Shown: positions 7,690 to 54,116 of the stretch, one piece after another
Layout of the letters: each line of letters opens with the position of its first letter
How positions within the stretch are numbered: position 1 is the first letter of the stretch
Assembly: GCA_905178155.1 (NCBI GenBank)
Contig: CAJINV010000003.1
Coordinates: forward strand, 517,091 to 581,090
DNA from: Amoebophrya sp. A120
Lineage: Eukaryota > Protista > Dinoflagellata
Length of the DNA: 64,000 bases
Direction: 5' to 3'
Made by a program: the position numbers and the translations under genes
The notes under the pieces: model-generated
Seen by the model: only the letters and a program-made list of their open reading frames with translations
The model's database searches: none
What the model was told of the DNA's origin: nothing

Positions 7690-10541
7690 CATGCGAGTTC
7701 CCGGCTCTTTTTCGGCAGAATAGCATGCAAGTTCCCGGGCTTTTTTCGGCCCGGGCGCGCGGCCGGGTTCCGGGGCGGCAATAGATGAGCCAAAAACCGT
7801 TGCCATAGCGTGCAGAATAGCACTCAAATTCCCGGGCTTTTTTCGGCCCCCCGGGCGCGCGGCCGGGTCCATCCGGGCCGGCGGTGGGCCCGGCAATAGA
7901 AGTGCCAAAAACCGTCGCCATGGCGTGCAGAATGGCATGCAAATTTCCGGGCTTTTTTCGGCCCGGGCGCGCGGCCGGGTTCATCCGGGCCCGCCGGTGG
8001 GCCCGGCAATAGAAGTGCCAAAAACCGTCGCCATAGCGTGCAGAATGGCATGCAAATTTCCGGGCTTTTTTCGGCCCGGGCGCGAAACCGGGTTCATCCG
8101 GGCCGGTGGGCCCGGCAATAGAAGTGCCAAAAACCGTCGCCATAGCGTGCAGAATGGCATGCAAATTTCCGGGCTTTTTTCGGCCCGGGCGCGAAACCGG
8201 GTTCATCCGGGCCGGTGGGCCCGGCAATAGAAGTGCCAAAAACCGTCGCCATAGCGTGCAGAATGGCATGCAAATTTCCGGGCTTTTTTCGGCCCGGGCG
8301 CGAAACCGGGTTCATCCGGGCCGGTGGGCCCGGCAATAGAAGTGCCAAAAACCGTCGCCATAGCGTGCAGAATGGCATGCAAATTTCCGGGCTTTTTTCG
8401 GCCCGGGCGCGAAACCGGGTTCATCCGGGCCGGTGGGCCCGGCAATAGAAGTGCCAAAAACCGTCGCCATAGCGTGCAGAATGGCATGCAAATTTCCGGG
8501 CTTTTTTCGGCCCGGGCGCGAAACCGGGTTCATCCGGGCCGGTGGGCCCGGCAATAGAAGTGCCAAAAACCGTCGCCATAGCGTGCAGAATGGCATGCAA
8601 ATTTCCGGGCTTTTTTCGGCCCGGGCGCGAAACCGGGTTCATCCGGGCCGGTGGGCCCGGCAATAGAAGTGCCAAAAACCGTCGCCATAGCGTGCAGAAT
8701 GGCATGCAAATTTCCGGGCTTTTTTCGGCCCGGGCGCGAAACCGGGTTCATCCGGGCCGGTGGGCCCGGCAATAGAAGTGCCAAAAACCGTCGCCATAGC
8801 GTGCAGAATGGCATGCAAATTTCCGGGCTTTTTTCGGCCCGGGCGCGAAACCGGGTTCATCCGGGCCGGTGGGCCCGGCAATAGAAGTGCCAAAAACCGT
8901 CGCCATAGCGTGCAGAATGGCATGCAAATTTCCGGGCTTTTTTCGGCCCGGGCGCGAAACCGGGTTCATCCGGGCCGGTGGGCCCGGCAATAGAAGTGCC
9001 AAAAACCGTCGCCATAGCGTGCAGAATGGCATGCAAATTTCCGGGCTTTTTTCGGCCCGGGCGCGAAACCGGGTTCATCCGGGCCGGTGGGCCCGGCAAT
9101 AGAAGTGCCAAAAACCGTCGCCATAGCGTGCAGAATGGCATGCAAATTGCCGGGCTTTTTTCGGCCCGGGCGCGAAACCGGGTTCATCCGGGCCGGTGGG
9201 CCCGGCAATAGAAGTGCCAAAAACCGTCGCCGTAGCGTGCAGAATGGCATGCAAATTTCCGGGCTTTTTTCGGCCCGGGCGCGCGGCCGGGTTCATCCGG
9301 GCCGGTGGGCCCGGCAATAGAAGTGCCAAGAACCGTCGCCATAGCGTGCAGAATGGCATGCAAATTCCCGGGCTTTTTCCGGCCCGGGCGCGCGGCCAGG
9401 TTCCGGGGCGGCAGTAAATGAGCCAAAAACCGTCGCCATAGCGTGCTGGGTAGCACGCAAATTTCCGGGGTTTTTTCGGCCCGGGCGCGCGGCCGGGCCC
9501 CGGGGCGGCAGTAAATGAGCCAAAAGCCGTCGCCTTAGCGTGCTGGATAGCACGCAAATTTCCGGGTTTTTTTCGGCCCGGGCGCGCGGCCGGGTCCCGG
9601 GGCGGCAGTAAATGAGCCAAAAATCGTCGCCATAGCGTGCTGAATAGCACGCAAATTTCCGGGCTTTTTTCGGCCCGGGCGCGCGGCCGGGTTCCCGGGC
9701 GGCAGACAGTAAATGAGCCAAAAACCGTGACCATAGCGTGCTGAATAGCACGCAAATTTCCGGGCTTTTTTCGGCCCAGGCGCGCGGCCGGGTTCCGGGG
9801 CGGCAGTAAATGAGCCAAAAACCGTCGCCATAGCGTGTTGAATAGCACGCAAATTTCCGGGCTTTTTTCGGCCCGGGCGCGCGGCCGGGTTCCGGGGCGG
9901 CAGTAAATGAGCCAAAAACCGTCGCCATAGCGTGCTGAATCACACGCAAAGTCCCGGGCTTTTTTCGGCCCGGGCGCGCGGCCGGGTTCCGGGGCGGCAG
10001 TAAATGAGCCAAAAACCGTCGCCATAGCGTGCTGAATAGCACGCAAAGTCCCGGGCTTTTTTCGGCCCGGGCGCGCGGCCGGGTTCCGGGGCGGCAGTAA
10101 ATGAGCCAAAAACCTTCGCCATAGCGTGCTAAATCAATAGCACGCAAATTTCCTGGCTTTCGGCCCGGGCGCGCGGCCGGGTTCCGGGGCGGCAGTAAAT
10201 GAGCCGTCAACCGTCACCATAGCGTGTTGAATAGCACGCAAATTTCCGGGCTTTTTTCGGCCCGGGCGCGCGGCCGGGTTCCGGGCCGGCAGTAAATGAG
10301 CCAAAAACCGTCACCCTAGCGTGCTGAATAGCACGCAAAGTTCCGGGCTTTTTTCGGCCCGGGCGCGCGGCCGGGTTCCGGGGCGGCAGTAGATGAGCCA
10401 AAAACCGTCGCCATAGCGTGCTGAATAGCACGCAAATTTCTGGGCTTTTTTCGGCCCGGGCGCGCGGCCGGGCTCCGGGGCGGCAGTAAATGAGCCAAAA
10501 ACCGTCGCCATAGCGTGCTGAATAGCATGCAAATTTCCGGG
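7690..10541. repeat. GC-rich tandem satellite with related 109-bp and 97-bp units
   Basis: Near-identical 109-bp units at ~7830-9360 (identical ORFs recur every 109 nt), flanked by more diverged 97-bp units. Both share AAAAACCGTCGCCATAGCGTG and GGCTTTTTTCGGCCCGGGCGCG. Confidence 0.97.
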
Positions 10542-14294: not shown

Positions 14295-17128
14295 ATGATT
14301 GCCGGCAGTGAGGTTTTTGAGGCGCAGCTCCAAGGCGAAGATGATTGCGTCACGGATATGGTGTTTAACTACTATGGGGACCAAATGGTTTACGCCACAA
14401 TCCGAGGCACGCTTTCGTTTTGGACAAAGAAACAAGCGACTTCCGCTTCATCTACTACTCCATCCAGAACGAGCCATCCATCCCAGGAGCCGATGGATAA
14501 TACTACCGCACTCTTTGAGGAGCAGGATTTTCTTTCCGGTACCACAAGCACCACCGAAAACACGACGACCGCGGCCGCTAGTTCGAGGATGATGATGTTT
14601 GGGAAAAACAACAAGCCACGATTTGAATCGTCTGCAACTGATCATGAGCCTCCGAAGTCTTTGTGGCAGGAATGCAGTTCCATCGTGAATGCACACGAGG
14701 GTCCGATCTGGCGCATAGACTGGGTCCACCCGGAGTATGGGAGTAACATGATAATCACCTGTGGGGGTCTGGAACGGAATATCAAGGTGTGGGAGGAGCA
14801 GCAAGACGATAGTACAAACGAGAAAGTACTATGGCGAAAGATCTACGAGTATCAAGTGTAAAAATGTCTGGGTCTGGAAGAATTCATGTTTGTCATGCTT
14901 GTCTGGCATGACTCTTAAATCTGTCATGCACGTTACCCAAGAGCTACGCTTTTCTGTGATGCAGAAGCGCAGTTTGTCATGCAGAATTCGCAACACCTAG
15001 GAGCTCAGAAACTTGTCATGCTGAGCCAGCATTTGTAGCCTCATCATGAGACGCCACCCAGCATTACAAGTTTTCAGACCCAGACATTTTTACATTTGAT
15101 AACGAGACACCGGGCCCCATCGCGAAGAGCGGCCTTGGAGTTGACGGCGATCAGTTTTTGGATTACGACCCTGCCGAGCAATATAGAAGTGTCAGGATTG
15201 AAATCGTCAAAGTTGAAATAGTTTGTCATGCATAAAATGGAGGCCAGTTGTGCCCCAGTTTCCAAGTGGCGCATGACAAAGTTGGGTAGAGCCGAAATCC
15301 AGTCTGTCATGCTGTTTAGGCAAAGAAGAATGCTCCTGTCATGTTATTTTAGCAGCTCAGTTTCTATCCCTCAACAGGCTTACAATCTGCCTCACTTGCC
15401 TACTCTGCAAGACAGGCACTCTTTGGGCTGCATTTTATGCATGACAAATCATTTCAACTTTGACGATAATTTCAATCCTGACACACGCATAAGCAAGTTT
15501 CCGACGTGAAATTCGCGCCGCATCACTTCGGACTGAAGTTCGCCGCGGCCAGCTGGAACGGGGCGGTGACCATCTACTGTCTAGCTTCCGAAGAGGTCAA
15601 GCCGCAGCAGTCTCTGCTGGTGGGACGGGGCGCGCCAGCAGTTCTGTCGGCTGCGGAACGCGAGCCCAAGGTGAAGATCTATTGGATGGAGTTTGAGGAG
15701 TTTCATGCCGAAGGAGAACTACGTGATGGGGATGAAGCCGGGGCACCAGGTGGAATATCAAGTACTAGCGGGGACTGCCCAGGAAATGAAAATGTGCCTA
15801 AGAACGATGAAGAGCAGCAGGACGCGGTCGTGTCCTCGTCCCGGCAACAAGGTCAACAACATCTTTCAGGATCATTGATGGCGATTCGCAGAAATGCTGC
15901 CAAAACGACAAACCGGTACGCCACACTGACACCAAAAAACGAGGCTCCACCGAAAAAGAACGCGGGAACGATCGCGCTTGCCTGGTGTCCATACAGACAT
16001 CAGGAATACATTGCTTCGGTATGATAACGACAAAAAGAAAATGATCATGACTTGTTTTTGGGAATTTCATTTTTACTGTCGAAAAATAGCACGACCTACC
16101 AATTACCACGGAATACGATTTTTTTTTTTGAGATGAAGATCCGGTAGTTCTTCACTTAATTTTCCCTACAGGTAAATGTCGATGGGCATTTCTACATCCA
16201 CGGTAGGCCACCGACATCTGATGATGACCGGACACCGTTTGGCTTTCCCGAAGACAGTAGATTTCTGGCACATAAGCGCCGGACTTGGATTCAGCTGCAC
16301 CGCGAAAGGCAGGACGAAGAAATAAAACCGAAGAACACGGACGTGAAGGACGTGGCATTCGCGCCTAACCTGTGCAGACCGTTCGAGCTCCTAGTCACGT
16401 GTGGAACCAATTTCAGTGCGAAGCTCTGGCGCTTCGATATAGCTCCGGTTAGGGTTCCTTGCCGGATCCCGGTCCCTACTGTCCCCAGAGATGCACCTTC
16501 TTCCTCTGCGGGAGGTCGTCCTGACAGCGGGTTCAACAGCTCCTGCAACCCGAGCCCTACCAACACGACCGAGGACAGAGACCGATTTGCAGACTATTAC
16601 GAGTTTGACACGAAGTTGTCCCTCTTGAAGGTGCTAAGCACAGAGCGAGACATCGTTACGAACCCGTCGCGCAATTTATTTGGTCTTCCTGATCCATACT
16701 TGGATGATACAACGATTTGGCGCTGCTCGTGGAATGTTTCCGGTACGGCGTTTACCCTGGCGCCGGGTTCCGGTCGCCTCCAGGTGTGGCAACTGCGGCA
16801 CGTGCCAGGAGGATTCGAAAAAACCTGGGTCCAAAGCCATACCGTGGACCACACAGATAATTACATCTCGATGAAGCAGGTGGAGGACGAAGATAGGGGA
16901 CCGATCGACAAGGCCGAATTGCGCAACAGAACAAACAGCGACACTGCAACTAGAGGTCATGCGACCTCCTCCTCTGGGATGGAAACGAGGACAGCACTCA
17001 TTCCAGAGGACACAAGCATCGCGGTTGCTGGCAGTGCCACGGGTATAATTCATCAGGGGCTCACGCTCCGTAAGAGTCACAATCTCGCCCCCGACGAGCG
17101 CCGCGCACCCGCCTCGGGAGGAGCATGA
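14295..17128 (+). CDS. SEH1: Nucleoporin SEH1-like WD40 protein
   Basis: Motifs AHEGPIWRIDWVHPEYG, IKVWEEQ, VSDVKFAPHHFGLKFAAAS, DVAFAPNLCRPFELLVT and IWRCSWNVSGT. Exons 14295-14849, 15107-15181, 15497-16018, 16172-17128. Confidence 0.88.
14850..15101. mobile_element. Introner-like TIR element 5 (family A)
   Basis: TIR TATCAAgTGTAAAAATGTCTGGGTCTG. DR ACGAG. 252 bp, close full-length match to 53285-53536. Confidence 0.95.
15182..15491. mobile_element. Introner-like TIR element 6
   Basis: ~55-bp imperfect TIR (GTGTCAGGATTGAAAT...CGTCAAAGTTGAAAT...TTTGTCATGCATAAAATG). DR AGCAA. Removal restores AEQVSDVKFAP. Confidence 0.92.
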
Positions 17129-17888
17129 AAAAGGCGCGGCTCCCGCAGGAACGGACGGGCCAGTGAGCAGGAAGGTGTGACATCAAGGTAACGAAAGCGA
17201 AATATAATGACAAAATATGAAGACGGGTGTGTGGAGAAGGTAGACTTAGAAGGAGAACAACTGTGCTCCTCAGGAAACCGAGACTCACATTTGTTCCAAA
17301 AAACTCTACTCAAGAGTGACATCTGATGCAAGAAGCCGCCACCGCGCAATAAAAGCACTTACACTTAAGTACTCTCAAAACCACATGTGGAGGATTTTGC
17401 ACGAAGCAGGTTAATAATGAACTTGAACGCGACAGCATTCTGGCTATATCGACTTAGAAGATGCATCGGAATTTATTTTTATGAGTGGTCCACCCCCCCT
17501 GTAACTGCATCGGTCTCTTGCAGAATACAGCTATGGCTGTTCCTTATGGAATGGAAATCAATATCAAATGAAAATGCTTTTTGTTTTTTGTACTTTCAGG
17601 ATGAACTACATTTTTGTGGTTGTGCAACTACATCTAGAAGACGGCCTAGTGGCTGGATGCGGGTGCGGAGACACGATCCCTCTACACTGCAACTACCCTT
17701 GCCTCGTTGTTCTAGTCGTCCGTGGCACTAAAGCTCTGTTTTGTTTTTGGTTCTAGATCGTTGAGACGTGTTTCAGCTATCTTTCAACTTTTGCCTTGCC
17801 TACGAGAAGCCACAGCGTTGTACGGACAACAACTGCCTCCACTGCCCCAGGCACTATCTTCGCAATCTTCCCGATCGTTTGGAACAAC

Positions 17889-20800
17889 ATGAGTATGTCG
17901 GATCTTTCCAAAACGATGCCCGCGGAGGCTGCTCTCGCGGATGACAGTCCTTCACCCCGGCAGACGCAGAAGTTTGTATTGCAGAAGGAACATCTTCACC
18001 AGCAAAGGAAAAAATCGTCGAGACGAGGAATAAACAAGGCGGGAACTTCGCGGTCTCAGTCGGTTCTGGATGTCGTAGCAGCGCCTGACGAGCGGTCTTT
18101 GCTCGGAGGTCGTGGGACATCAACGAGAAATTCGTCCGCGAAGGCCGCGACGAGCTCGAGTACAACTTCATTTGGCCTCGCATCATGCACCGTACTGCAT
18201 CTTGCCTCCATCGTTGCAGGCCTGCTCGTGTTCGCGATGGTTGGTGTGTGGATCGGAGTCGCGTACAGTGGGGTCGTACTGCACACGTCGCCTGCTGATA
18301 GTACGGGGGACACTGGAACTACGAATCAACAGCCGAGGCAGACACCTCCCGGCACAGGAGGTGGGGCCGCTCTGAAACCAACGGGAGGTGGATCTGCTAC
18401 CACGACACGTTCTGTTGCCGATCATCTCTTTTCCGGCGGGGCTGCCCCCGGCGCAGCTGCCGGATCATCGTCAGCGACGGATGTGGATTTCGAGGGCCTT
18501 TTGAAGAGCCTTGACACCTCAGACCACGCGGATGACCCCGCGGTCAGGGAGTTCGTCGAAGCGCTTCAAGAGGTGGGTAGGATCATCGACAGCGAACACC
18601 ACGAGGGAAACGCGCAGCTCTTGCTGAAGCACGGAGTTCCGGGGGCCGCAGGCAGAAATAAACGCTTGAAGGGCGCCGCGGGTGGTCCGCCGGGCGACAG
18701 CCTCGCGTGGACGATCTACAGTCAGCTGGTCACGGGGGGCCAGGCCACCACCGCGGCGGAACTGAAGATGATCGTGAAGCTTCTCGCCTTCGGGGTGAAA
18801 AACGTCGTGGATAACCCGACGGGTCGGGCGGACCTGATGGAGCAGCGACACCACAAGCAGGCAAAGCGGTTTTACGAGAACGTGAAGGCGATGGTATTCA
18901 GGGGTAAAGCGGCGGCCAGTGGGGACGCGGCCACCGATCCGACCGTCTCCACCGGGACCATCGGTGCTGTCCCGGGCGGAAAGACGTTTTTTACCGAAGC
19001 GCAGCTGACCGGGAAGCTGCCCTACTCGCCGCAAGACGCTTGGAAGGCGTTCCAGCTGTCCGCCGCCATTTACCAGATTCCCCTGGAGGGGAAGGACGAT
19101 ACGCAGGAAAGCAGAGACAGTGCCCGAGCCTGGATGGAAGGGTTTCTGCGAGACGGTACGAATTTTTTAGTACAGGACGGTCTGGAGCCGATGTTGCCGG
19201 GAAGGAAGATAACGATAACCAACGCGACGAAAGTCGAAGGTAAAACAGACACTGAAACTTCATCTCCTGGTGCTAGTATGGACATCCAAAACCTGTTCAT
19301 TGGCGTTCCCCATGGCCACAAGATGGAGAAGTCGGGCGCGGCCGTGGCCGGAGACTTGTTCAGCTGGCTCGTGACGAAAACCACTAGCATCGGCTTCGAG
19401 GCTGCGCAGCCGCTGATGCGCCTGCTCGGCTTCTCCCTGGCAAAAGGCTGGCGGCCGTGGCACGAATGGAGTAATGCGAAAATAAATTCGACTTCATCTT
19501 CTGGCACCACAAGCGAAACATTACCACACCATCCAGCGCACCACGAACACACGCCGCAGCCGGCGAAGCCAGGAGGCGATGATGGCCCGACGCCAGAGCA
19601 AACGGAGAACAGCTTCGACGTTATTTCTGAGTTACCCCGCTGGATGTTTTTCGTGGACGCAAACACCAAGCAGGCGCACTTTGTGTTCCGCGGAACCATG
19701 ACGTTGGCGGATTGGAACACGAACCTCAAAGTCACGGGTGACGAAACCTCGCCCGTCAGAAGAGCCTACAAGAGGCACCAGACGGTTGCGGAAGTATCCC
19801 CGGAGAGGACCCAACAAGGCCAAGCAGAGAGAAGAAAATCTTCACTGGACACGAGTACTACAACACCCGACGCGACCTTCTCCGAGGAAAATGGTATCAA
19901 GAGCGAAGGCCAAGAACACCACGATGTCGCCCCGGAAAAAAACAAGTTTCTTGCAGGTTCCCCGCCTGTGCAGCTCGAAGTCGAACCTGAGCCACAGGAG
20001 CAAATAACAAGTGGAGGAGAAGAGAATGAAAGCCAAAACCCGTCGACCCAACCAACCGCTGTGCAGCCAGGCCGTTTGTCAACACCGCCGGGTGAGCTCA
20101 AACTGCATGGCGGTTTTTATCAACGGGTGCGCGAATCGCTCGCAGACTTCGAATTGCAGCTCAGAAAGGAATGCGTCACGTACTACTGGAGCGCGAAAAC
20201 TTCATCTACCCCAGCAAGTTTCTACCATGATTCGCCGACATCCTCGCGGGGGCGGGACGCTGTCGCAGAGTCAGAAGATCAAGATGCAACTGCGACAGGG
20301 AAGAGCGAGGGCGTTGGAACTCCTCCTGCATCGACAGATGATGTTGATGATGCACTTTCGGTACGGGTACAACACGATCAAGCGGAGATCGAGCGCGGCT
20401 GTGGCCTTGCCCATGCCCCTGAACCTCAAGATGATCCGGGGAAAGGCAAAAATCAAAATGTCGATACTCGTGTCTGGGACGCTTTCAACAATAAGAAAAC
20501 AAAACTTCAGCACTTGATGGAGGAGCAGTCGTTTTTGCCGCTGTCGGAGCGCATTGACGTGGTTGTTGGGGAGAGGAACGACGACTTTCGCATCGTGCGG
20601 CCGCTTGCCCGCGAGAAGCAAGTGAAGACCAACTACGCAGCCGCGGCAAATAAGAGAAGTAATGCCACACAACTACCACCAGAAACTGGGCATGGACTTC
20701 ATGCGCAAGCTGTAGAGGCGCCAAGTTTGTCTCCTGCAGGAGCGTGCGAGCACGGGAAGTCTGCACCTGCTGAACGCGAAGAAGATGGTGCTCTTGCAGC

Positions 20801-22103
20801 TATTCAAGCACCACAAGCTCCTGGAGCGCGAAGATCGGCGGGACCACCAGCCTCTTCCGCAACGAGGGACCGCGGAATATTTCACGCATTGCATCAAGGA
20901 TTCGAATTTGAATTAGACGACCCCTTGCTCGATGTTTCGCTCCAACGCATACTGACAACCGAAGAGAGCGGAGGTGAAGAAGAAACCAAAGATGGACCAC
21001 GGAAGAGTAGTATTGACGGCGCGCGGTTCGTGGAGTACCTAAACCACCTTTCCGAAGGCATTTCAAGTCTGCAGATCACGGGGCATAGTCTTGGCGGAGC
21101 GAGTGCACTCATTTTGCACCGAATTTGGAAAAGCCACCCGGTGCTGCGGATTCTCTTCGCAAACGTTGTTGTCGCAGGAGGTCCCGCGGGGGATGTGGAG
21201 GAGGCCCGAGTTACGACAATCGCGTATTCTGCGCCACCTTTTCTAGCTGCGCCGCGGAATGACGAGGAAAAAACACAGAAGTGGCTCTACGTCACAGACG
21301 AGTCTGAGATTTCATCGGAGGGGGCTGCAGGAGCTCCAGCTCCTCCCGTGAAGGTCGAGATGAACGGTGATTCAGGCGTAGACCACGGAAGATACGATGG
21401 ACTACAGTACGAGCACGTTCCGGAGCCCACGCACTTCAAGAACGCGCACAATCTCGTGGTGGGTTTTGATCCCGTGCACCGGTTGGGGCACCTCTCTGTG
21501 TCTGCCGATGTGTTGATGTATACGAAGCTGGGCTCCTACTTGTGGCTAGTGCCAGATCGGTACTACAACGATCCGACAGGAGGAGGTGAAGCTGGTGTGC
21601 CAGCGGTCTCAGCAGGAGCATCTACTGCGCAGATCGGCGCCGCCGAGGAGGAAGCCAAACCTGCTGCAAATTCCGCCCTGCTCATCAACCGAAGCAACAA
21701 CTTCCGTCTACTGGATCTGAAGCCTGAGGTTTTAAACAAATTTTTCGGGCGCGTAGACACGAAGATGACCACGATCGAGGCGGGTATGGCCGTTGGCGAT
21801 CACCTGATGAAAAATTTCATCTACGAGGTGTACCATCTCTCTGTGCAGCGAAAGAAAGACGAAGACCTTGATGCTGCTGGTAATTTACATTTTGACGACG
21901 CTGATAATGATAAAAATCCCAGCAGCAACACGAACACCCCAGCGATCATTATTCCAACAACCAAGTCCGGCGACGTGCATCAGCACAAAAGCGGACAAAT
22001 AACGCTGACGCAGACAACCCCATCTACCACTTCCACGCACGAGCCATCGCCGTTCTCTCAAGTTCTGTGGGACAAGGACACTGAACCTGAGGCTATTGCA
22101 TGA
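17889..22103 (+). CDS. Class 3 lipase-like protein with N-terminal TM segment; probable original last exon at 25372-25484
   Basis: Motifs FVFRGT, LHGGFY, ITGHSLGG nucleophile elbow and DPVHRL. The frame continues WDKDTE-LPEGGADEEV...QEG* if 22087-25371 is removed. Confidence 0.85.
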   Translation: MSMSDLSKTMPAEAALADDSPSPRQTQKFVLQKEHLHQQRKKSSRRGINKAGTSRSQSVLDVVAAPDERSLLGGRGTSTRNSSAKAATSSSTTSFGLASCTVLHLASIVAGLLVFAMVGVWIGVAYSGVVLHTSPADSTGDTGTTNQQPRQTPPGTGGGAALKPTGGGSATTTRSVADHLFSGGAAPGAAAGSSSATDVDFEGLLKSLDTSDHADDPAVREFVEALQEVGRIIDSEHHEGNAQLLLKHGVPGAAGRNKRLKGAAGGPPGDSLAWTIYSQLVTGGQATTAAELKMIVKLLAFGVKNVVDNPTGRADLMEQRHHKQAKRFYENVKAMVFRGKAAASGDAATDPTVSTGTIGAVPGGKTFFTEAQLTGKLPYSPQDAWKAFQLSAAIYQIPLEGKDDTQESRDSARAWMEGFLRDGTNFLVQDGLEPMLPGRKITITNATKVEGKTDTETSSPGASMDIQNLFIGVPHGHKMEKSGAAVAGDLFSWLVTKTTSIGFEAAQPLMRLLGFSLAKGWRPWHEWSNAKINSTSSSGTTSETLPHHPAHHEHTPQPAKPGGDDGPTPEQTENSFDVISELPRWMFFVDANTKQAHFVFRGTMTLADWNTNLKVTGDETSPVRRAYKRHQTVAEVSPERTQQGQAERRKSSLDTSTTTPDATFSEENGIKSEGQEHHDVAPEKNKFLAGSPPVQLEVEPEPQEQITSGGEENESQNPSTQPTAVQPGRLSTPPGELKLHGGFYQRVRESLADFELQLRKECVTYYWSAKTSSTPASFYHDSPTSSRGRDAVAESEDQDATATGKSEGVGTPPASTDDVDDALSVRVQHDQAEIERGCGLAHAPEPQDDPGKGKNQNVDTRVWDAFNNKKTKLQHLMEEQSFLPLSERIDVVVGERNDDFRIVRPLAREKQVKTNYAAAANKRSNATQLPPETGHGLHAQAVEAPSLSPAGACEHGKSAPAEREEDGALAAIQAPQAPGARRSAGPPASSATRDRGIFHALHQGFEFELDDPLLDVSLQRILTTEESGGEEETKDGPRKSSIDGARFVEYLNHLSEGISSLQITGHSLGGASALILHRIWKSHPVLRILFANVVVAGGPAGDVEEARVTTIAYSAPPFLAAPRNDEEKTQKWLYVTDESEISSEGAAGAPAPPVKVEMNGDSGVDHGRYDGLQYEHVPEPTHFKNAHNLVVGFDPVHRLGHLSVSADVLMYTKLGSYLWLVPDRYYNDPTGGGEAGVPAVSAGASTAQIGAAEEEAKPAANSALLINRSNNFRLLDLKPEVLNKFFGRVDTKMTTIEAGMAVGDHLMKNFIYEVYHLSVQRKKDEDLDAAGNLHFDDADNDKNPSSNTNTPAIIIPTTKSGDVHQHKSGQITLTQTTPSTTSTHEPSPFSQVLWDKDTEPEAIA

Positions 22104-23275
22104 TGTGGCCACCAATGCATCTAGTGCCGGCGGCACCGGGGCCCGGGGCCTTCGCCCTCCGTTGCATGCGCCTGCCCTTCGGTCCACAGAGAAGACAGAA
22201 CCCGCCGGCCGCGCACACACAGCTTTGGGCGCGCGGCGGCAATTGTCCCGCTCCGTGCAAGCCCCACCAAGCCAAGGGCTTCGCGCAATGCGCCCAAGTC
22301 TGCCGGGGCCGGGGCAACGAGCAGGGAGCGAAAATAAAGGCAGGCGGCGCGCAAAAGCGGGCCCCGCCCGGTGATTCTATTGCAGAAAAGAAACAGGCGG
22401 GGCGCGCCCCGTATATTGCGTTGCCGGGCCCGCCTGGTGTCTGTTAGTCTTCCGCCCCGATTTGCGGGGGCGGTTGCTGGCCTTCTTTGTGTTGGCCCGC
22501 CCTGGTTTCCCGCGTTTTTTTCGCACGACATCCCCGGGTCAAATGTGCACGAGGGGGCGTTGGCCCTCAAAATAAAAGCGCCGGGCGCGCCGCGGCCTTT
22601 TGGGTAGCCTAGGTAGCGAAGAGAATGAACGGCCGACGGCCTCCCATCAATCAGAACCCCGGCCCGGGCCCGGAGTAGATGCAGCCGGCGCGCAAAATAG
22701 AGAGGCCACTCTCATGGGCGTGCGTGCTTGCGAAACAAAGACAACCGCCACAATTTTGCGCGCGGCCCCGGCGTGTCTCGCGGGCGCCCCTTGGGGCGGG
22801 GCCGGCTTGGGGTGCGTGGATGGTCCGCGGAAAAGTTGTGCTTCCTCCCTAAGCCACAACTTTTCCCGGAGTCCGGTCGTGTTTGAGGGTAAAAAGAAGC
22901 TGCACAACGCCCAAGGGGGGCAGAAAAAGACAGCCACAGGTCGTGCGTAACCTAATGCAGCATGGTATGGCTGCGAGGAAAATTCGCACGCAGCGATACC
23001 ATGCAGCATAACCTCACGCCCGATGCTATCGGGAGTGCGAATATTGCTGCTTGGGGATAGCATCGCGCAAAAGGTTACGCCCGACGGTGTGCAGCGGCTG
23101 TGGCAGCCGCTTGTGGCGAACGGGGGGATTTGTAATGCGGAGAAGAGCCCGGGTTGCGGAGAACCCGAGGGTCCGGGCTTTCCCCTCTCCCCATTTTACC
23201 CACAACCCGAACCCCGAGCTCTGGGGAGCCCCGCACTCCGCATGTGTAATGCGGAGAGCCCGACCTTTCTTCCGC

Positions 23276-23344
23276 CCATTGCATTTGTAATGCGGAGAGC
23301 CCGACCTTTGAAAGGTCGGGCTCTCCGCATTACAAACGCAATGG
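23276..23344. repeat. 69-bp near-perfect palindrome within a TTGTAATGCGGA repeat cluster
   Basis: 34-nt arms CCATTGCATTTGTAATGCGGAGAGCCCGACCTTT / AAAGGTCGGGCTCTCCGCATTACAAACGCAATGG, 1-nt spacer, 1 mismatch. Confidence 0.9.
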
Positions 23345-24165
23345 CTATGGGCACCTTTCCGCACTTGTAATGCGGAAAGGCCACCTTTCCGCATTTGTAA
23401 TGCGGAGAACCGGAGGCGCGGTCTTTCACTTTCTCCAACCGGAGGAAGCGGAGTTTGCGAATTTGTGGCGCGGCTTTTCTCCTGCGGGGAGAAAAGCTGC
23501 ATCTGCATCCGGCTGGTTTTCCAATTTTGTAATGCAGTTTTTCTCCACCCGACCGCTCGAGCGGAGAAAAACCGCGCGCAAAACAAGTAGCTTTGCGCGC
23601 GAAAAAACGGGCACAAGCCCTATGAAAAGCGCAGCTTCTACCCCGTCCGGAGCGGGAAAAGTTGTAAGCGGGTGGAGCCCCATTTGCTTCCTCATTCTCG
23701 TAGGTCGCTAGTTTCATTCTCGTGGCACTAAATGCTCTTTCTGGGGTCAAATTGTATTTTGTCCGTTCATAAGCCATCGCCGTTCTCTCAAGTTCTGTGG
23801 GACAATCTGACTACTAAAAACCTCGCGGTAGCTGGGGGGCGTTCTAGTCTTCGGTCTAGTTCGTCGCCCTCTACCAGGCCTGTACTACCTGAAAGCAGAA
23901 CTTCGGCTAGGGCAACAAGATCACATCAAGCAGCATCCGCGAGCAGCATCCGAACCGAGAGTAGTCAGCCGGGCCATTTCTGAAGGCGCTGCGAGGTGGG
24001 CGGAGAGGCATCACGCTAGCAGTTGGACGGGAGCAAGGCCAGCGTTCTTCTGTGTGATGTTCGTCGTATACTGTCCTGCCTAGTTCAACTATGTAGGTTA
24101 TCTCTCTCTCTCTCTCAAGTTCTGTGGGACAAGGACACTGAACCTGTGGGACAATGACACTGAAC

Positions 24166-24799
24166 CGATGGTATTATTGTTGTTGGTGTTGGAACTGGAT
24201 GAAGGGTCGGCATTTTTGTTCTCACTGTCGGCACCGGTTTTTGCGGACTGTTTGGCGATCAGAGAATTGTAGCGCTTGTCGCTCTGCTGCTGCACGAGTT
24301 TGTTGATCGCCTTGGCGGGATCGCTGCCCAAAGCTCTGCATTCCGCGGTAGTGTGGGTGTTGTTGTAGCCGTGGAAGGCGCAATACTTGTTGCCCTTCCC
24401 CCCTTGCTGATTGTTGTTCTTACCCTTTTTACCGCTGCCTTTGTTCTTCTTACCGCCCTTGTTTTTGCCGTTGTTTTTGTTGTTGAAGTTGTTTCTGCCC
24501 CACTTGTTCGAAGCGGAATCGACACCGTTCCAAAACGCAACCACCTGGTCATCCTTACTGGTGGCCTTAGTGCCGTCGGGATTGGCGGTGGACTGTTTGT
24601 AGAACCGCTCTAAATGCGCCTTCACATTGTCGGCCGCGAAGCCCGACTTTTTCCCGTGGGTTTCGCTCGCAAGCCGGTCCACGAGCTGTCGCTCGTTGTT
24701 CTCGTCCATCCCCGACGACTTCAAGTACAAGAACCCCAACAATGTGTCGGGCAGTTCCCACTCGGTCAGCTCGGCCCAGTAGGAATCCAGCTTCTGCAT
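24166..24799 (-). mobile_element. LTR-retrotransposon gag-like fragment, truncated
   Basis: LPDTLLGFLYLKSSG helical region, G/K/N-rich linker and a Zn-knuckle-like CAFHGYNNTHTTAEC. Cut off by the exon-end repeat; no pol or LTR seen. Confidence 0.6.
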
Positions 24800-25205
24800 C
24801 CGCTCATCTACTTTTACGAAACCGAGTCAAGACGAAGTAGATAGTGTTACTGTTTCCGACGGGGTGGGTAGTCATTTACGGGAATAGGGATTTAACTTTA
24901 AGAAATTCAGGCTCTCCACCAATGTTGGACCGACTCTAGGAACACGCGAAGGAGTTCATAAACGGACCGCGTTCATTGATTGATATACCCACAAAAGACT
25001 GTCAATTTGAGATGTACAGAAGTTGTTCATTTTCATTTCTTGCGTCGCAGATTTCCTTTTCCTCGCATGAGAAACTCATTGCGTAAAAAACAAGAAAAAA
25101 CGTTTTCACGAAAAAAAGGTTTATGACAGAACTTGTTTCTTCACAGACTCAATGTGGGAACACAATCGCCGTTCTCTCAAGTCCTGTGGGACAAGGACAC
25201 TGAAC

Positions 25206-25366
25206 TATGCATTGCAAAAGTATCGTACTCGTATAAATGCATTACAAATGTCCTCGGCATTACAAAGGTAAATTTGTAATGCGGATCCGGATTCGCCTTG
25301 ATTGCTAGATTTGTAATGCATGACTGCGATTACTACGAGACGAGTACGATACTTTTTCACAGGATA
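25206..25366. mobile_element. Introner-like TIR element 7 (family D)
   Basis: TATGCATTGCAAAAGTATCGTACTCG...CGAGTACGATACTTTTTCACAGGATA. DR TGAAC. Homologous to 26757-26905. Confidence 0.9.
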
Positions 25367-25371
25367 TGAAC

Positions 25372-25484
25372 TACCTGAAGGAGGCGCGGACGAAGAGGTG
25401 GAACAAGGAGAGGCCCTGCCGGTAGAAACGCCCGTCGTTCAGCATCCGGAAACAATACCCGTGTCGCCGCGGCAGGAGGGGTAA
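25372..25484 (+). CDS. Displaced terminal exon of the lipase gene
   Basis: Follows the right-hand TGAAC DR and is in frame with the lipase: (L)PEGGADEEVEQGEALPVETPVVQHPETIPVSPRQEG*. Confidence 0.65.
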
Positions 25485-26585: not shown

Positions 26586-28707
26586 ATGACGGCGTCCTCT
26601 ACTGCACAGCAGCAGGCTGCGGCCAGCAACGGGTCCACCTCCAGTGGCTCCGAAAGTGGTGCGCACCACCAGCAGCACCAGCAGCAAGTCGTCACCTTTC
26701 TGAGAGGGACGGACAAGTTGAAGACGGGTTTGGCGGAGATGCTAAAGGGGGGCGTGTATGAATTGCAAAAGTATCGTACTCGTATAAAGGCATTACAAAT
26801 TTTCTTAGCATGAGAAGCAAAACATGTAGTGCGGATTTACCTTAAGAAAAATATTTGTAATGCAAGACTTGCATGTATACGAATACGAGATTTTTGCACA
26901 GGATAGCGTGATCATGGACGTGATGAACGTGGAGCAGGCCAAGATTGCCGAGGCCGCCGGTGTATCAAATGCAAAAATGTCTGGGTCTGGACAAATGCAA
27001 CTTGTGATGCTGCATTTGGATGTCTAAAAAATTTATGTTGCATGAGCAGCAAAAGACTTCTAATTTTTGCTACGCGGAGAGGGCATTTGTCAGGCGGAAT
27101 AGTCATTACTTAAGAATCCCTCAAAAAGAAAAAACCTGTGACGCTAGGGCATGCATCACAGACATCATGGCTCATGCAAACCGTGCATGACAAGTCTGGT
27201 CTCAGAATCTTTCAGACCCAGACACTTTTGCATTTGATACGGTGCCTGCGCGGTGATGGCGTTGGAGCGGATTCCGGCGGATATTCGCAAGGACCAGGGG
27301 GTGGCCCGAGCGTCAGATCCGAAGATGATCAAGGATATCATAGCGGCGGTCAGCATTCCCGTCATGGCCAAGGTGCGCATCGGCCACTTCGTGGAGGCAC
27401 AGGTTTTGGAAGCCATCGGAGTGGACTACGTCGACGAATCGGAAGTCTTAACCATTGCCGACGTCGACCACCACATCGATAAGACCAAGTACAGAGAAGT
27501 TATCTGGCGGCTACTTGTTTTTCAAAATCTGTTAGTTGTGCAGCTGTCGTTTTCCTCTTGTTTCTTCCACCTTAACATTGTCTTGGTCTGGTCACGATTT
27601 TTTTTTTGTTGCTGCGACCACATCGGACGACCTCTGTGGTCTACTCACTTTAGTTTTAAAAGCATTATGTGATGATAAGTATTTCGATTCGATTCGTGAA
27701 GCAAGAATTATCTCAGCTCATCTTCATCATGCGTTCCTTGTTACAACTACAGGTTCACTACCCCCTTCGTATGCGGGTGTCGCAATCTGGGCGAAGCGCT
27801 GCGACGCATCTCAGAGGGCGCCTCCATGATTCGGACCAAGGGCGAGGCCGGCACTGGCGACGTGGTGGAAGCGGTGCGGCACATCCGGACGCTGCACCGA
27901 GAAATTCGGCAGTTGCAGGCCCTTAATGACGATGAGGTGTACCATTTTGGCAAGACGCACGGCGCAGACGTGTCCCTCCTGAAGCAGGTACTACCGAAGC
28001 TTATTAAGCTTAAGCTTTACTTTGTTGAATTCTGCCAAGTGAAAATTAATTGTAGCAGACGTCATCGCCCACGCCCTGATTTTGAGCAGAAGCCGAGTCC
28101 GAGGCTCGTAGTACTTTCAGTAAGGTAGAAGTAAGTGTCGCGTTCCACCCGGCGTTTTGACGCCACTGAGTCTGGCGCTCTCAATGCAGTGTTGTTCGCT
28201 TGCATTTTCGTCATCCGAGCTTTTGAAGAAGTTCTGCCTTTCGTTGTATACTTGATGCCTCGTCTCCTGTTCGGAACAACGAATGAAGTGCCTAATTGAA
28301 CCCGATGAATAAAGGTGCGCAAGCTCGGCAGATTACCGGTGGTGAATTTCGCGGCGGGAGGTGTCGCGACCCCGGCCGACGCGGCGCTGTGCATGCAACT
28401 GGGGGTGGACGGCGTCTTCGTCGGGTCCGGCATTTTCAAGTCTACCGATCCGGCGCCCCGGGCGCGCGCAATCGTGGAGGCGGTCACGCACTACAAGGAC
28501 CCCAAAGTGTTAGCCAAGGTTTCCGAGGGGCTGGGCACGCCGATGACCGGTATTGGCTGCGACCACCTGAGCACGCACTGGGCCAAGCGCGAGTCAGGAA
28601 ACCTGGAGGAACACCAGGGCGGGCACAGCGGACCGGCACTGAAAAAGATGAAGGGCACCGAGCTCGAAGCCGCGGTAGCCGGCGCCTTGCGCGCGCACGG
28701 AGCCTGA
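26586..28707 (+). CDS. PDX1: Pyridoxal 5'-phosphate synthase subunit PDX1
   Basis: [45 protein letters not shown] and [20 protein letters not shown]. Exons 26586-26756, 26911-26962, 27245-27488, 27753-27987, 28315-28707. Confidence 0.97.
26757..26905. mobile_element. Introner-like TIR element 8 (family D)
   Basis: TATGAATTGCAAAAGTATCGTACTCG...TTTTTGCACAGGATA. DR GCGTG. Removal restores KGGVIMDV. Confidence 0.92.
26963..27239. mobile_element. Introner-like TIR element 9 (family A termini)
   Basis: TIR TATCAAATGCAAAAaTGTCTGGGTCTG. DR CGGTG. Removal restores the conserved AEAAGACAV; no AG at the 3' junction. Confidence 0.95.
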
Positions 28708-38900: not shown

Positions 38901-41900
38901 GAAGTCTCTGTCGCTGAACCGGCGGCCCTTCCTGCGGGACGTCAGCGCGTACCTGGTTTCTCTCGGAATCTTGTATTGGCTACTCGCATCCGTTCCCGTC
39001 GATAATTCGGAGATACTGGATCAGCTTGCCTCGGCAGCAGGAGAAGTACACGTACAACTACCTCTACCCGGCGAAATCAATACAACCGGAACGAACGCTG
39101 GCTTGGAAGGACAAGACAACTCTCGTAGACCAGACGGGGCGAAGATCTTTGTAAATGACGAGGATGCAGCGAGCACGAGCAGCAGCAGCATTTTGTCGCC
39201 GTTGAAAGGCCCAGCAGCACTGTTCCTGATGATAGCGAGTGAACTCTTCATCGGTGAAAAAGGCGAAATCACGACTGGTGCCGCGTGTCTGTTTCTCGGT
39301 TGGTATTTCGTGTACTTCATTGCCGTCGTCTTCGGTCGCAACGCGCGGGGCCAGCTGCGTTCCCTGCGAGGCCGGCGACCCCTGATTGAGCGGGACATCT
39401 CGCAGTTCCGCGAGCGAGCCATCGAGTCGCGGTCGAACATATCAAAATGAAAAATCCCCCCTCGTCCCCATATCAAAACGGAAATTTGTGATGCTGATTT
39501 GTGGCCACAGATCAGCTTTGTATTGCAGAGAGGCATGGCGGCCAGATCCCCAGGCTAGGTAGGGGCGTATGGGTCTAGTTGTTCAGCATGGCAAACGGCT
39601 CCCCTTGAGGCTCAACAGCATGACAAATCGCTTCCATAATGAGGCGGAAGCTTCTGCCCTTGTCTTCTTGCAAGACAGACGTGATTTGTGACCGACGTGT
39701 TGGGGGTGAGGGACCCCCAACGGGGCCTACGGATATTAGGTGGAACTAAGGCTCAAATCCGCAACGCAAATTTTTGGAAACATACCTTTTCAATATGGGG
39801 AGGGGGGGCGTTTCCTCTCAATAGAACATGCAGCTGAGCGACCCCAGTTCGGCCTCTCGCGCAGAGCACCCGTGTCTGCAAGGTGAAACACCGTCGCCAG
39901 AAGATGAAAACGCTGGCACGGTCGGAGCAGGAGCGGGCATACAGATAGACGGGGCATCCTCGTCGCCGATGAACGCCAACATCTCCTCCTCTCCGTCAAA
40001 CAATAAACGACGGAAGTTGCCCACCGGCAGCCCCGCACGTGTCACGTTCCACGAGGGCCCGCTTTCGGAAGAAGAGGAAGCAAGCGCTGCCACTAGCAGT
40101 GCAAAAAAACGAGAAACTACGCAGCAAGCACAAGTGAGTACCTACGGGGACGCGGAAGATGCGTCGCCACCCGGGTCCTCGTCGCCTTCGGGGCTGAAAG
40201 CTCTGGGACGAGGTGGTGGTCGCGAGACGCGGAATTTGTCTTCCACGTCAATTGACGCATCTCGTGCGCGGCTCACGTTTGACAGTAGTCCGCGGAAGAC
40301 GGATGTGGTTAGTGCTCCGGCCTCCCCGCCGAACGACCAGGGGGTGATAGCGGACTATAGAAAGACCATTGCAATGTCAAACGTAACAGGCAACGGCTCG
40401 CCTTCTGTAGTTGCGGGCAGAAGTAGAGATTCAGCGTCAGCAAGTGATGAAATAATTGGATTGACGTTCCGGGGAGCGGTTGCTAGCACTGCAACGTCAA
40501 CCGCTAGCATGCTCATCGTTGACGAAACGGGGGCAAAAACACGAGCAACTACAGCCGTGGCGCAGCATAGAAGCACAGAGGGAGAACAAGAAACACAGGG
40601 CGTGCTTGCTGTTCCTGATCCACCTACGTCTGAACCCACGACTACCGATCAGGAGTCCATCACGAGCAGTGGCGCGACTTCGAAATCGTCAGAAGAGTCG
40701 GGAGAGCAAGTGCAACGGACGAGTCTTGCCGCGGAATCCCCCTCGAAAGCAACTTCTGCACGAGGCTTTCTAGTCGGTGCGCTACCAGTCAAGACAAGCG
40801 ATCAAGTCGACGTTCTCGTGCACGTCGACGGAGGTGGTTCATCCACCACGGCGGGAGCACGTGCAAGAGCAGGTTCTACTCTACCGGTCACGACCGCGGT
40901 CGGAGGTACTACTGCCGGCATCGATGCTGATTCTGAGCGCCGGCGCCCCAGCGGTGATGCTGGCGATCTTCATTCCACCGATTCAACGCTTGCAACCCGG
41001 CCACTCAGCCTGTACCGGCGAACGACCATCCTTTTAACCTCCTGCAACTGTTTCTCGCCGTCCGACTGGGGTGAGGTTCTGTGGGCGCCGGTCGCGAAGT
41101 ATGGATTGTAAAAGTGTCTGGGCCTGGAAAGTTAGAACTTGTAATGCTAGCTTTCCATACCTAGAAAATCTGTATCGCATAACCAACAAAAGTCGCAGCC
41201 TCTTTTGTCATGCAAAAACGCAGTTTCTCATGCGGATTGCCTATGAGAAAGCGTTTTGGGAAGTTGTCATGCCGGACTGCGTTCGGAAGTGTTTTCATCA
41301 TGCACATTTTAGCATCACAAGTTTCCAGACCCAGACATTTTTACAATCCATACGAAGCTGTCCGACGCGATGTGCCCGGACTGCCGCATTCTCGAGCCGG
41401 CGGAGCACCTGTGGCCCGTGACGTTTCTCTCCGCCCTCGTGCTCATCGCAATCTGGTCGGCGGTGGTGACGAACGTCGTTGGCCGGTGGGTCACACTGTT
41501 GCACGGGGACGAACGCACCCTGTCCTACCTGGGCATGGTGCTGGTGGCCTTTGGAGCGGAGGTGCCGGACTGCGTCCAGTCTGTGCAAGCGGCACGCCGG
41601 GGTTTGGGCTCCATGGCGATTGCCTCCTGCCTCGGCGCGCAGACGCTCAACATCTGCATCGGCTTGGGCCTGCCGTGGGCGATGGTGGCACTGGCCGGCA
41701 AGCCCATCAAGCTCATTACAACTGGGGGCGGGAGCTACACTGAAGTTGATCTAGATCACGGGTTTGTTCTTGAAGAAGATGATGAGCTGCAGCAGGGCAG
41801 GATTTTACCGCCGGTGAACCCGGAGTTGGCAGGGATTGTGTCGTGTCTGGGCTGTGTGGCGTGCGCCGTCGGTGTCGTCGTCGTCTTGACGGTTTTCCCG

Positions 41901-53013: not shown

Positions 53014-54116
<1,103 letters not shown>

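What the first reader, a model, noticed from the sequence alone, without database searches (positions are those of the whole stretch)
22042..25484. Repeat-spacer-like array of captured DNA built at the left end of an introner
Seen: the last ~35-45 bp of the lipase exon recurs at 22042, 23772, 24111 (plus a tandem 22-mer) and 25165. All but the second copy end exactly at TGAAC, the DR of element 7. Between the copies lie three unrelated fragments: ~1.7 kb GC-rich and hairpin-rich DNA, ~0.3 kb unknown, and ~1 kb carrying an antisense gag fragment. After the last copy come element 7 and an in-frame terminal exon. Inference: repeated breakage at the introner end, each round duplicating the exon end and capturing foreign, partly mobile-element DNA. 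It is formally like spacer acquisition beside a leader, but templated end-joining or RT template jumping are simpler explanations. The gene either stops early at 22103 or removes 3.3 kb between the outer TGAAC copies.
Basis: partly seen in the sequence, partly recalled or inferred. Interest (0 to 1): 0.85.

Follow-up and report, generated by a model that had tools for sequence, protein, structure and literature searches.

The report
Nested transposon scar beside an introner
The apparent repeat-and-spacer array is real, but its inserts are pieces of jumping genes that likely landed one after another at the end of a lipase-like gene; one piece is now spliced out as a new intron, and another carries the introners' shared signature and might lead to the unknown element that moves them.

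Summary
The four copies of the exon end are real, and contig ends in two DNA-like runs fall where the window predicts. It is not a spacer array. Copies 2 and 3 are one copy split by a 0.3-kb multicopy, (CT)n-tailed, 5'-truncated element with a 22-bp target duplication. The 1-kb piece is single-copy: a putative LTR, a primer-site-like motif and a broken gag-like ORF with Amoebophrya relatives. The 1.7-kb piece is multicopy, ends where other copies end, has an introner-type terminus, and holds six copies of a 9-nt motif found in 13 of 13 introners of the window and not in 58.9 kb of other sequence. Likely order: LTR piece (41-bp duplication ending at the introner edge), then 1.7-kb piece (45-48 bp), then the tailed element. 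RNA-like contigs splice introner 7 and splice the LTR/gag piece as a new GT-AG intron; they show no 3.3-kb intron. The lipase mRNA's 3' end is unresolved. Only 1 of 11 introners scanned has such a flank. Verdict: a one-off nested insertion scar, with a useful lead to a large introner-related element.

The parts
17892..22103 (+). Large single-exon ORF of a lipase-like gene (stop-to-stop ORF 17757-22103; first ATG taken as start); reading on past c1 gives a stop at 22101-22103
   Evidence: Pfam Lipase_3 E 7.5e-05, residues 1058-1086 only; RNA-like contig of 4244 nt ending at 22066
22042..22089 (+). Copy 1 of the exon end; left copy of the 45-48-bp duplication around the 1.7-kb insert
22090..23771 (.). 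1.7-kb insert: multicopy, no protein family match; likely the right arm of a large introner-related terminal-inverted-repeat element, cut off on the left
   Evidence: contig depths about 2 to 10 times single copy; 2 contigs of run X6 leave the window sequence right after 23771; no partner terminus on the left; no Pfam hit below E 0.05 in its ORFs
23129..23535 (.). Six copies of the introner-shared motif TTGT[ACG]ATGC, with a 34-bp-arm hairpin at 23276-23344
23757..23771 (-). Introner-type terminus (TAT, 8 nt, AAAA read inwards; most introners here have 7 nt)
   Evidence: background 39 in 117,794 positions; for the published pattern
23772..23805 (+). Copy 2: left part of the split copy; 23784-23805 is the left target duplication of the 0.3-kb element
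   Evidence: RNA-like contig 23701-23805 bridges the insert end and copy 2
23803..24110 (+). 0.3-kb 3' end of a multicopy (CT)n-tailed element, 5'-truncated with a 3-nt overlap; likely a non-LTR retroelement
   Evidence: loose ends before 23803 and 24061 and behind 24115/24120; contig depths 156-287 against 24-48 single copy
24111..24143 (+). Copy 3: right part of the split copy; 24111-24132 is the right target duplication
24144..24165 (+). Tandem re-copy of the last 22 nt, ending at TGAAC; one change gives an in-frame stop
   Evidence: DNA-like contig 24117-25231 with 0 differences
24167..24826 (-). gag-like ORF fragment, lacking its first part and cut before the protease-like region of its relative
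   Evidence: phmmer E 3.4e-39 to residues 298-488 of a 685-aa Amoebophrya protein; no Pfam name
24910..24921 (-). Primer-binding-site-like motif one base after the putative LTR
   Evidence: the reading as a tRNA primer site is recalled knowledge, not tested
24923..25164 (-). Putative 5' LTR, 242 bp, TG...CA, abutting copy 4 (outer end uncertain by about 2 nt; no second LTR to compare)
24171..25146 (+). New GT-AG intron covering the gag/LTR piece (second acceptor: intron 24171-25118); also retained in part of the RNA
   Evidence: joints in RNA-like runs X4 (depth 16.8 and 8.44) and X6 (8.44); retained form in X3
25165..25205 (+). Copy 4: the exon piece that runs into the introner
25206..25366 (+). 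Introner (element 7), terminal inverted repeats, 5-bp direct repeat TGAAC (25201-25205 / 25367-25371); spliced from RNA
   Evidence: X3 contig joins 25200 to 25367; loose ends at 25207 in X4 and X6
25372..25484 (+). Former terminal coding exon (37 codons and stop), in frame with copy 4; RNA continues to at least 25938

Best explanation
The array is the duplicated end of one exon interleaved with three mobile-element pieces, which likely arrived in three separate insertions, each likely duplicating its own target. Shown: the copies, their extents, the multicopy state of the 1.7-kb and 0.3-kb pieces, the single-copy state of the LTR/gag piece, and splicing of introner 7 and of the LTR/gag piece. 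Inferred, step 1: a fragment of LTR-element DNA was joined by its LTR end at 22046 while the opposite strand was broken or blocked at the introner's left boundary; filling the 41-nt overhang and re-copying its last 22 nt gave c3, the tandem and c4 (one-ended integration or end-joining capture). Inferred, step 2: the right arm of a large introner-related element was joined by its natural end 4 nt further upstream, its other end was lost, and host repair copied 45-48 nt (c1). Inferred, step 3: a (CT)n-tailed retroelement inserted by target-primed reverse transcription at the TCTCTC of the middle copy, with a 22-bp duplication (c2 and c3). Result: the lipase has likely lost its last 37 residues, and the downstream part is transcribed with a new GT-AG intron.
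For: Extents of the copies and the 22-bp duplication. Other copies of the 0.3-kb element start at different places and end in the same tail (loose ends). Two contigs leave at 23771, the introner-type terminus; motif in 13 of 13 introners, 6 times in the insert, 0 in 58,897 other bases; 1000 shuffles of the insert: mean 0.035, maximum 2. TG...CA, primer-site-like motif and gag-like ORF in order. Order of events: c1 and c3 share 3 nt of the tandem, and c4 alone differs at 25183. One normal end, one truncated end and a long host duplication is the described product of one-ended integration (PMC5041404, passages and section 10). Filled-in overhangs between two nicks give tandem duplications (PMC5730883, passages). 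Only 1 of 11 introners scanned has a duplicated flank; no other 24-nt duplicate within 8 kb apart from one introner pair, the tandem array left out.
Against: Two rare long-duplication events 4 nt apart, both ending within 3 nt of TGAAC, is a coincidence that independent insertions explain poorly. The 3-nt match could be chance (1 in 64), which would put both events at the introner edge. Whole-element alignments of the insert to introners are weak (best 1 of 200 shuffles reached the score for 2 of 13 comparisons), and the terminus has 8 rather than 7 spacer bases. The motif was chosen after looking at the sequence, and 3 further hits near 43070 were set aside as a 14th element. The outer end of the LTR cannot be checked against a second copy and loosely resembles the exon end (364 of 2000 shuffles, but only 50 of 4721 random window 25-mers, did as well). 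No reverse transcriptase, integrase or transposase was seen for any piece. No empty allele and no spanning read were found.
Confidence: 0.6

Rival explanations
1. The introner's left edge caused both long duplications: repeated nicking or stalling at TGAAC, either in two rounds (1.7-kb piece first) or in one serial template-switching repair that left the exon at TGAAC three times and returned upstream at 22042, 22065 and 22046.
For: c1, c3 and the tandem all stop at TGAAC within 3 nt. The insert shares the introner terminus and motif, so one transposase could bind both. Repeated nicking after a duplication gives multiple repeats in cells (PMC5730883 passage).
Against: c1 shares 3 more nt with the tandem, and c4 alone carries the change at 25183. 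The LTR piece has no near-identical copy in the DNA-like runs while the 1.7-kb piece has several, which fits different ages. 10 of 11 introners scanned show nothing similar.
Confidence: 0.2
2. The 1.7-kb piece is the 3' part of a tail-less non-LTR retroelement inserted by target-primed reverse transcription with an unusually long (45-48 bp) target duplication.
For: Fixed right end, cut left end, lower depth at the far left. Target duplications of 126 bp are reported for R9 elements (PMC9977147 passage). Its last ~250 nt are in RNA-like contigs.
Against: Introner-type terminus and six introner motifs; no tail; no ORF with a family match over 1.7 kb; depth does not rise steadily to the right end.
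Confidence: 0.1
3. A dedicated, CRISPR-like acquisition system in which the introner acts as a leader and mobile DNA is stored between regenerated repeats.
For: Formal likeness; the region is transcribed and part of the RNA keeps the gag piece in antisense (record 12).
Against: Repeat lengths 48, 22, 22 and 41 nt; inserts 0.3-1.7 kb that end at element ends; the youngest insertion sits in the middle, not next to the introner; 1 of 11 introners; no Cas, reverse transcriptase, integrase or transposase family among the 150 longest ORFs of the window; the LTR piece has no close copy to target.
Confidence: 0.04
4. Misassembly: alleles or repeat copies concatenated.
For: No contig spans the whole stretch; inside the 1.7-kb repeat several window bases appear in no laid contig (22979, 23187, 23731); the interior could be collapsed.
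Against: DNA-like contigs of runs X1 and X2 end at 22071 and start at 24117 as the window predicts; without copy 2 the end would be 22083, without the c1-insert junction the start would be 24111. One contig spans c3 to the introner with 0 differences at single-copy depth (42.6 against 43.9 and 48.1 for the flanks). An RNA-like contig bridges the insert end and c2. X1 and X2 are one sample and may be the source of the window.
Confidence: 0.05

Closest known systems
Amoebophrya introner elements (PMC7789003; outline, passages, sections 10-12 and 16, supplement search)
   Same: Element 7 and the other short elements have terminal inverted repeats starting TAT, 7 nt, AAA and 5-bp direct repeats, as described for strain A120; element 7 is spliced.
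   Different: The text I read describes neither long flank duplications nor a shared internal motif, and reports no transposase in A120. Figures S19-S25 could not be seen as images and may show the motif. The 1.7-kb piece is far longer, one-ended and has an 8-nt spacer.
One-ended (aberrant) retroviral integration (PMC5041404; passages and section 10)
   Same: One normal end, one truncated end, and a host duplication much longer than the usual 5 bp.
   Different: Shown there for HIV and ASLV vectors under drug or mutation; here inferred from a fixed genomic scar of a protist LTR element and a DNA-element arm, with duplications of only 41-48 bp.
Tandem duplication at staggered breaks, and capture of retrotransposon DNA at breaks (PMC5730883 passages; PMC4516963 and PMC11372161 search listing only)
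   Same: Duplication of the stretch between two nicks, repeated rounds, and mobile-element DNA as filler.
   Different: Here one boundary coincides with an introner edge and the fillers end at apparent element termini.
5'-truncated non-LTR retroelement insertion (PMC6007223, abstract only; otherwise recalled)
   Same: 0.3-kb piece: microsatellite tail matching the target, 22-bp duplication, variable 5' truncation, short 5' overlap.
   Different: No ORF was recovered, so the clade is not known.
TIR-flanked Amoebophrya introners with LTR-element homology (PMC12130899; passages and section 6)
   Same: Shows that larger TIR elements and LTR-derived introns exist in this lineage.
   Different: Here the gag piece is not inside inverted repeats and is spliced by a new GT-AG pair. 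Whether the 1.7-kb arm belongs to those families was not tested (their datasets were not read).
CRISPR repeat-spacer arrays (features recalled)
   Same: Short repeats separated by foreign DNA next to a fixed landmark.
   Different: No constant repeat or spacer length, no polarity, no acquisition genes, single locus.

Membership tests
CRISPR-like acquisition array | Repeats of constant length and sequence | tested here: not met
   Duplications of 45-48, 22, 22 and 41 nt with different starts
CRISPR-like acquisition array | Short spacers of similar length | tested here: not met
   1682, 305 and 999 nt
CRISPR-like acquisition array | New units added next to the leader | tested here: not met
   The tailed element splits the middle copy; shared bases favour the introner-proximal insert as oldest; the order of the two long events is inferred
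CRISPR-like acquisition array | Linked acquisition enzymes | tested here: not met
   No such Pfam family among the 150 longest of 171 stop-to-stop ORFs of 110 aa or more; short exons and the rest of the genome not covered
CRISPR-like acquisition array | Processing into guide RNAs | not testable with these tools
   No small-RNA data
Amoebophrya introner (element 7) | Terminal inverted repeats TAT-N7-AAA and 3-5-nt direct repeat | tested here: met
Amoebophrya introner (element 7) | Repeated in the genome and spliced from RNA | tested here: met
   Relative at 26757-26905, very high depth in X1, spliced in X3, X4, X6
Introner-type TIR element (1.7-kb piece) | Introner-type terminus at a shared end point | tested here: met
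   TAT, 8 nt, AAAA; 2 contigs leave at 23771
Introner-type TIR element (1.7-kb piece) | Second inverted terminus and 5-bp duplication | tested here: not met
   No partner found, best 14 of 25 and not on the left; duplication is 45-48 nt
Introner-type TIR element (1.7-kb piece) | Transposase in a full-length copy | not testable with these tools
   No genome held; collection scans empty
LTR retrotransposon (1-kb piece) | TG...CA LTR followed by a primer-binding site | tested here: inconclusive
   Pattern present but no second LTR and no matching tRNA examined
LTR retrotransposon (1-kb piece) | gag ORF with Cys/His knuckle | tested here: met
   C-x2-H...H-x4-C kept in relatives; 8 relatives at E up to 0.001; the label gag is recalled, no Pfam family matched
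LTR retrotransposon (1-kb piece) | pol genes, 3' LTR and 4-6-bp duplication | tested here: not met
   Cut at 24166; duplication is 41 nt plus a 22-mer; no pol domain named in relatives
Non-LTR retroelement insertion (0.3-kb piece) | 3' simple-repeat tail, target duplication, variable 5' truncation, multicopy | tested here: met
Non-LTR retroelement insertion (0.3-kb piece) | Reverse transcriptase in a parent element | not testable with these tools
   Only the last 0.3 kb is in the window; no genome held

The most novel reading that the evidence does not exclude
Introner ends are live nicking sites that trap incoming mobile DNA with long duplications, and the 1.7-kb piece is the terminal arm of the missing autonomous element whose enzyme recognises the motif TTGT[ACG]ATGC shared by all introner families here; walking inwards from its other genomic copies would reveal the mobiliser of Amoebophrya introners.
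Probability: 0.15. Interest if true: 0.75.

Novelty: new member of a known kind. Interest (0 to 1): 0.38.

Why it matters
As an array it is an ordinary, if crowded, insertion scar. Two things are worth keeping. It shows a new canonical intron arising from an antisense LTR fragment beside a duplicated exon end, with two acceptors in use. It also gives a handle on an open question: the genome paper found no transposase for A120-type introners. A multicopy, kilobase-scale arm with the introner terminus and a motif common to all 13 catalogued introners of the window can be followed in the genome in one search.

Tried and rejected
No whole genome is held, so genome-wide tests were impossible. No RNA holder was listed on record. 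Raw RNA runs: X10 laid 3 reads, X12 none, X11 covered only the neighbouring SOR/SNZ gene: no test of the lipase. Empty-allele probe in metagenome contigs: 0 matches. Terminus and motif probes of the 1.7-kb piece: 0 in viral contigs, 0 in metagenome contigs. gag-like ORF: no locus in viral contigs, no hit in word-index searches; lipase C-terminal region: no hit. Single-sequence fold of the gag piece was uninformative (mean pLDDT 41.8) and was not searched. No solved structure for the best relative. The protein atlas did not complete. Rfam: 8 matches, none at gathering score, no ribozyme; the miRNA match is only the long hairpin. The 0.3-kb piece does not fold better than shuffles (z 0.43). Left junctions of the inserts show no convincing locally templated bases. 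Earlier findings: none. The 3.3-kb intron was rejected because RNA-like contigs run unbroken through c4 into the terminal exon, including in X3 where the lipase exon is at depth 19.8; rare forms can be dropped from contigs. Paper searches listed no description of such an array or of the shared motif; I read only listings for most of them, so this is weak.


Full report
Setting. The window is eukaryotic, with short elements bounded by inverted repeats and 5-bp direct repeats. Their ends (TAT, 7 nt, AAA) match the pattern described for Amoebophrya A120 introners (PMC7789003 section 11), and the best relatives of the gag-like ORF are Amoebophrya proteins. The genus is therefore an inference. No whole genome was available.

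Observation. The exon end recurs at 22042-22089, 23772-23805, 24111-24146 and 25165-25205, with a tandem 22-mer at 24144-24165. Copy 4 differs by one synonymous base at 25183 and the tandem by one base that makes a stop. Element 7 (25206-25366) and the in-frame terminal exon to 25484 are as described.

Is it real? In two DNA-like runs of one sample, the lipase contig ends at 22071 and the gag contig starts at 24117. A 31-mer graph of the window predicts exactly these breaks; without copy 2 the end would be 22083, and without the copy 1-insert junction the start would be 24111. One contig spans 24117-25231 with no differences at depth 42.6, against 43.9 and 48.1 for the flanks, so the LTR piece is not a half-depth allele. 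An RNA-like contig bridges the insert end and copy 2 (23701-23805). Not shown: a direct bridge from copy 2 into the 0.3-kb piece (the piece tables were cut short), and the interior of the 1.7-kb repeat. No record spans the whole stretch, and these runs may be the window's source.

The 0.3-kb piece. Copies 2 and 3 overlap by 22 nt (23784-23805 and 24111-24132) and together make one whole copy. Other contigs continue upstream of 23803, start at 24061, or leave after the (CT)n run with other flanks, at depths several times single copy. This is the anatomy of a 5'-truncated non-LTR insertion whose tail matches the target (recalled; PMC6007223 abstract, links tail microsatellites to target starts). 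It needs no introner.

The 1-kb piece. On the minus strand: 242 bp bounded by TG and CA, a primer-site-like motif, then a gag-like ORF that matches residues 298-488 of a 685-aa relative (E 3.4e-39; 8 relatives in 1.84 billion). The front of the ORF is missing and it stops before the protease-like motif that I recognise by eye in the relative. No Pfam family names it. It is single-copy at 90% identity.

The 1.7-kb piece. Contigs on it have about 2 to 10 times single-copy depth, and two contigs leave the window sequence right after 23771. Read inwards, that end is TAT, 8 nt, AAAA (background 39 in 117,794 positions). The motif TTGT[ACG]ATGC occurs in 13 of 13 catalogued introners, 6 times in this piece and 0 times in 58,897 other bases; 3 more hits belong to a 14th element near 42989-43160 that I set aside. 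The motif was picked after inspection, and whole-element alignments are weak. No left terminus was found. I read it as the right arm of a larger introner-related element.

Order and mechanism (inferred). Both long inserts have an apparent natural end on the right, joined at 22042 or 22046, a cut end on the left, and a 41-48-bp duplication. One-ended integration gives this product (PMC5041404 section 10 and passages), and filling in overhangs between two nicks gives such duplications (PMC5730883 passages). Copy 3 and the tandem both stop at the introner boundary, where a DDE transposase would nick (recalled) or a polymerase could stall, so one event is probably tied to the introner. Copy 1 includes the first 3 nt of the tandem, and copies 1-3 share the base in which copy 4 differs. 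This favours LTR piece first, 1.7-kb piece second, tailed element last, which is not polar growth at a leader. The 3-nt match could be chance, so the introner-edge rival keeps 0.2.

RNA. Runs X3, X4 and X6 are only guessed to be RNA, but X3 splices three introns of the neighbouring SOR/SNZ gene and all three are nearly empty over the multicopy left part of the insert. Introner 7 is spliced in all three. X4 and X6 show GT-AG joints that remove 24171-25146 (X4) or 24171-25118 (X4, X6), each in one contig with 27-29 nt on the short side; X3 keeps the piece at depth 28.6. Contigs run unbroken through copy 4 into the terminal exon, so a copy 1 to terminal exon splice is not seen. The lipase contig in X3 (depth 19.8) ends at 22066, just before a GT, and the next bin has depth 2.22, so plain read-through to the stop at 22103 is not seen either. 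In X4 and X6 nothing was laid on 21800-22141, yet their word shares (0.65, 0.61) suggest filtered records, so a separate promoter in the insert is possible but not shown.

Is it a system? Of 11 introners scanned, only element 7 has a duplicated flank. A window-wide scan for 24-nt duplicates 60-8000 nt apart, leaving out the tandem array at 7.6-10.6 kb, found only this locus and one introner pair. No Cas, reverse transcriptase, integrase or transposase family was found among the 150 longest ORFs. Collection scans found no second locus or empty allele, which is weak evidence because those collections barely cover this organism.

Verdict. A real, one-off nested insertion scar of known kinds of events, interest 0.38. 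The lasting lead is the introner-related arm and the shared motif. PMC7789003 section 16 reports no transposase in A120, and PMC12130899 section 6 reports larger TIR-flanked introners with LTR-element homology there. Supplementary figures of the first paper and the datasets of the second were not seen and may already cover the motif or the element.

Noticed in passing
window 331-565, 657-904, 2757-2972, 3021-3343, 14850-15101, 15189-15484, 25206-25366, 26757-26905, 26963-27239, 39440-39823, 41100-41352, 43235-43414, 53285-53536: All 13 catalogued introner-like elements, of otherwise unrelated families, carry TTGT[ACG]ATGC, often 32-46 nt inside the ends and in inverted orientation; none in 58,897 other bases. 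Candidate transposase-binding or splicing signal.
   Followed up: partly
window 42989-43160: A 14th introner-like element with a 5-bp direct repeat and 3 copies of the motif, missed by my first scans.
   Followed up: partly
window 26905-26963: Two introners only 57 nt apart in the SOR/SNZ (PDX1-like) gene; both and a GT-AG intron at 27489-27752 are spliced in run X3.
   Followed up: partly
window 26937: In raw RNA run X11, 167 reads carry a template-switch adapter at 26937, inside the short exon between the two introners, so many molecules begin there. Possibly a splicing intermediate or an internal start; adapter identity recalled.
   Followed up: no
window 7715-10541: Tandem array of about 97-109-bp units, 2.8 kb, GC about 0.6.
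   Followed up: no
window 14850-15101 and 53285-53536: Two introner copies 93% identical over 253 nt, a young family.
   Followed up: no
window 22979, 23187, 23595, 23731, 23954: Positions inside the repeats where every laid contig of X1 differs from the window: private changes removed from contigs, or consensus errors.
   Followed up: no
window 23745-23773: The right end of the 1.7-kb piece forms a pyrimidine-rich stretch followed by AG, a candidate splice acceptor for the lipase mRNA.
   Followed up: no
P0009 (cluster of P0002): A 1796-aa Amoebophrya gene model contains the same gag-like domain in its middle, probably a gene model fused across an inserted element.
   Followed up: no
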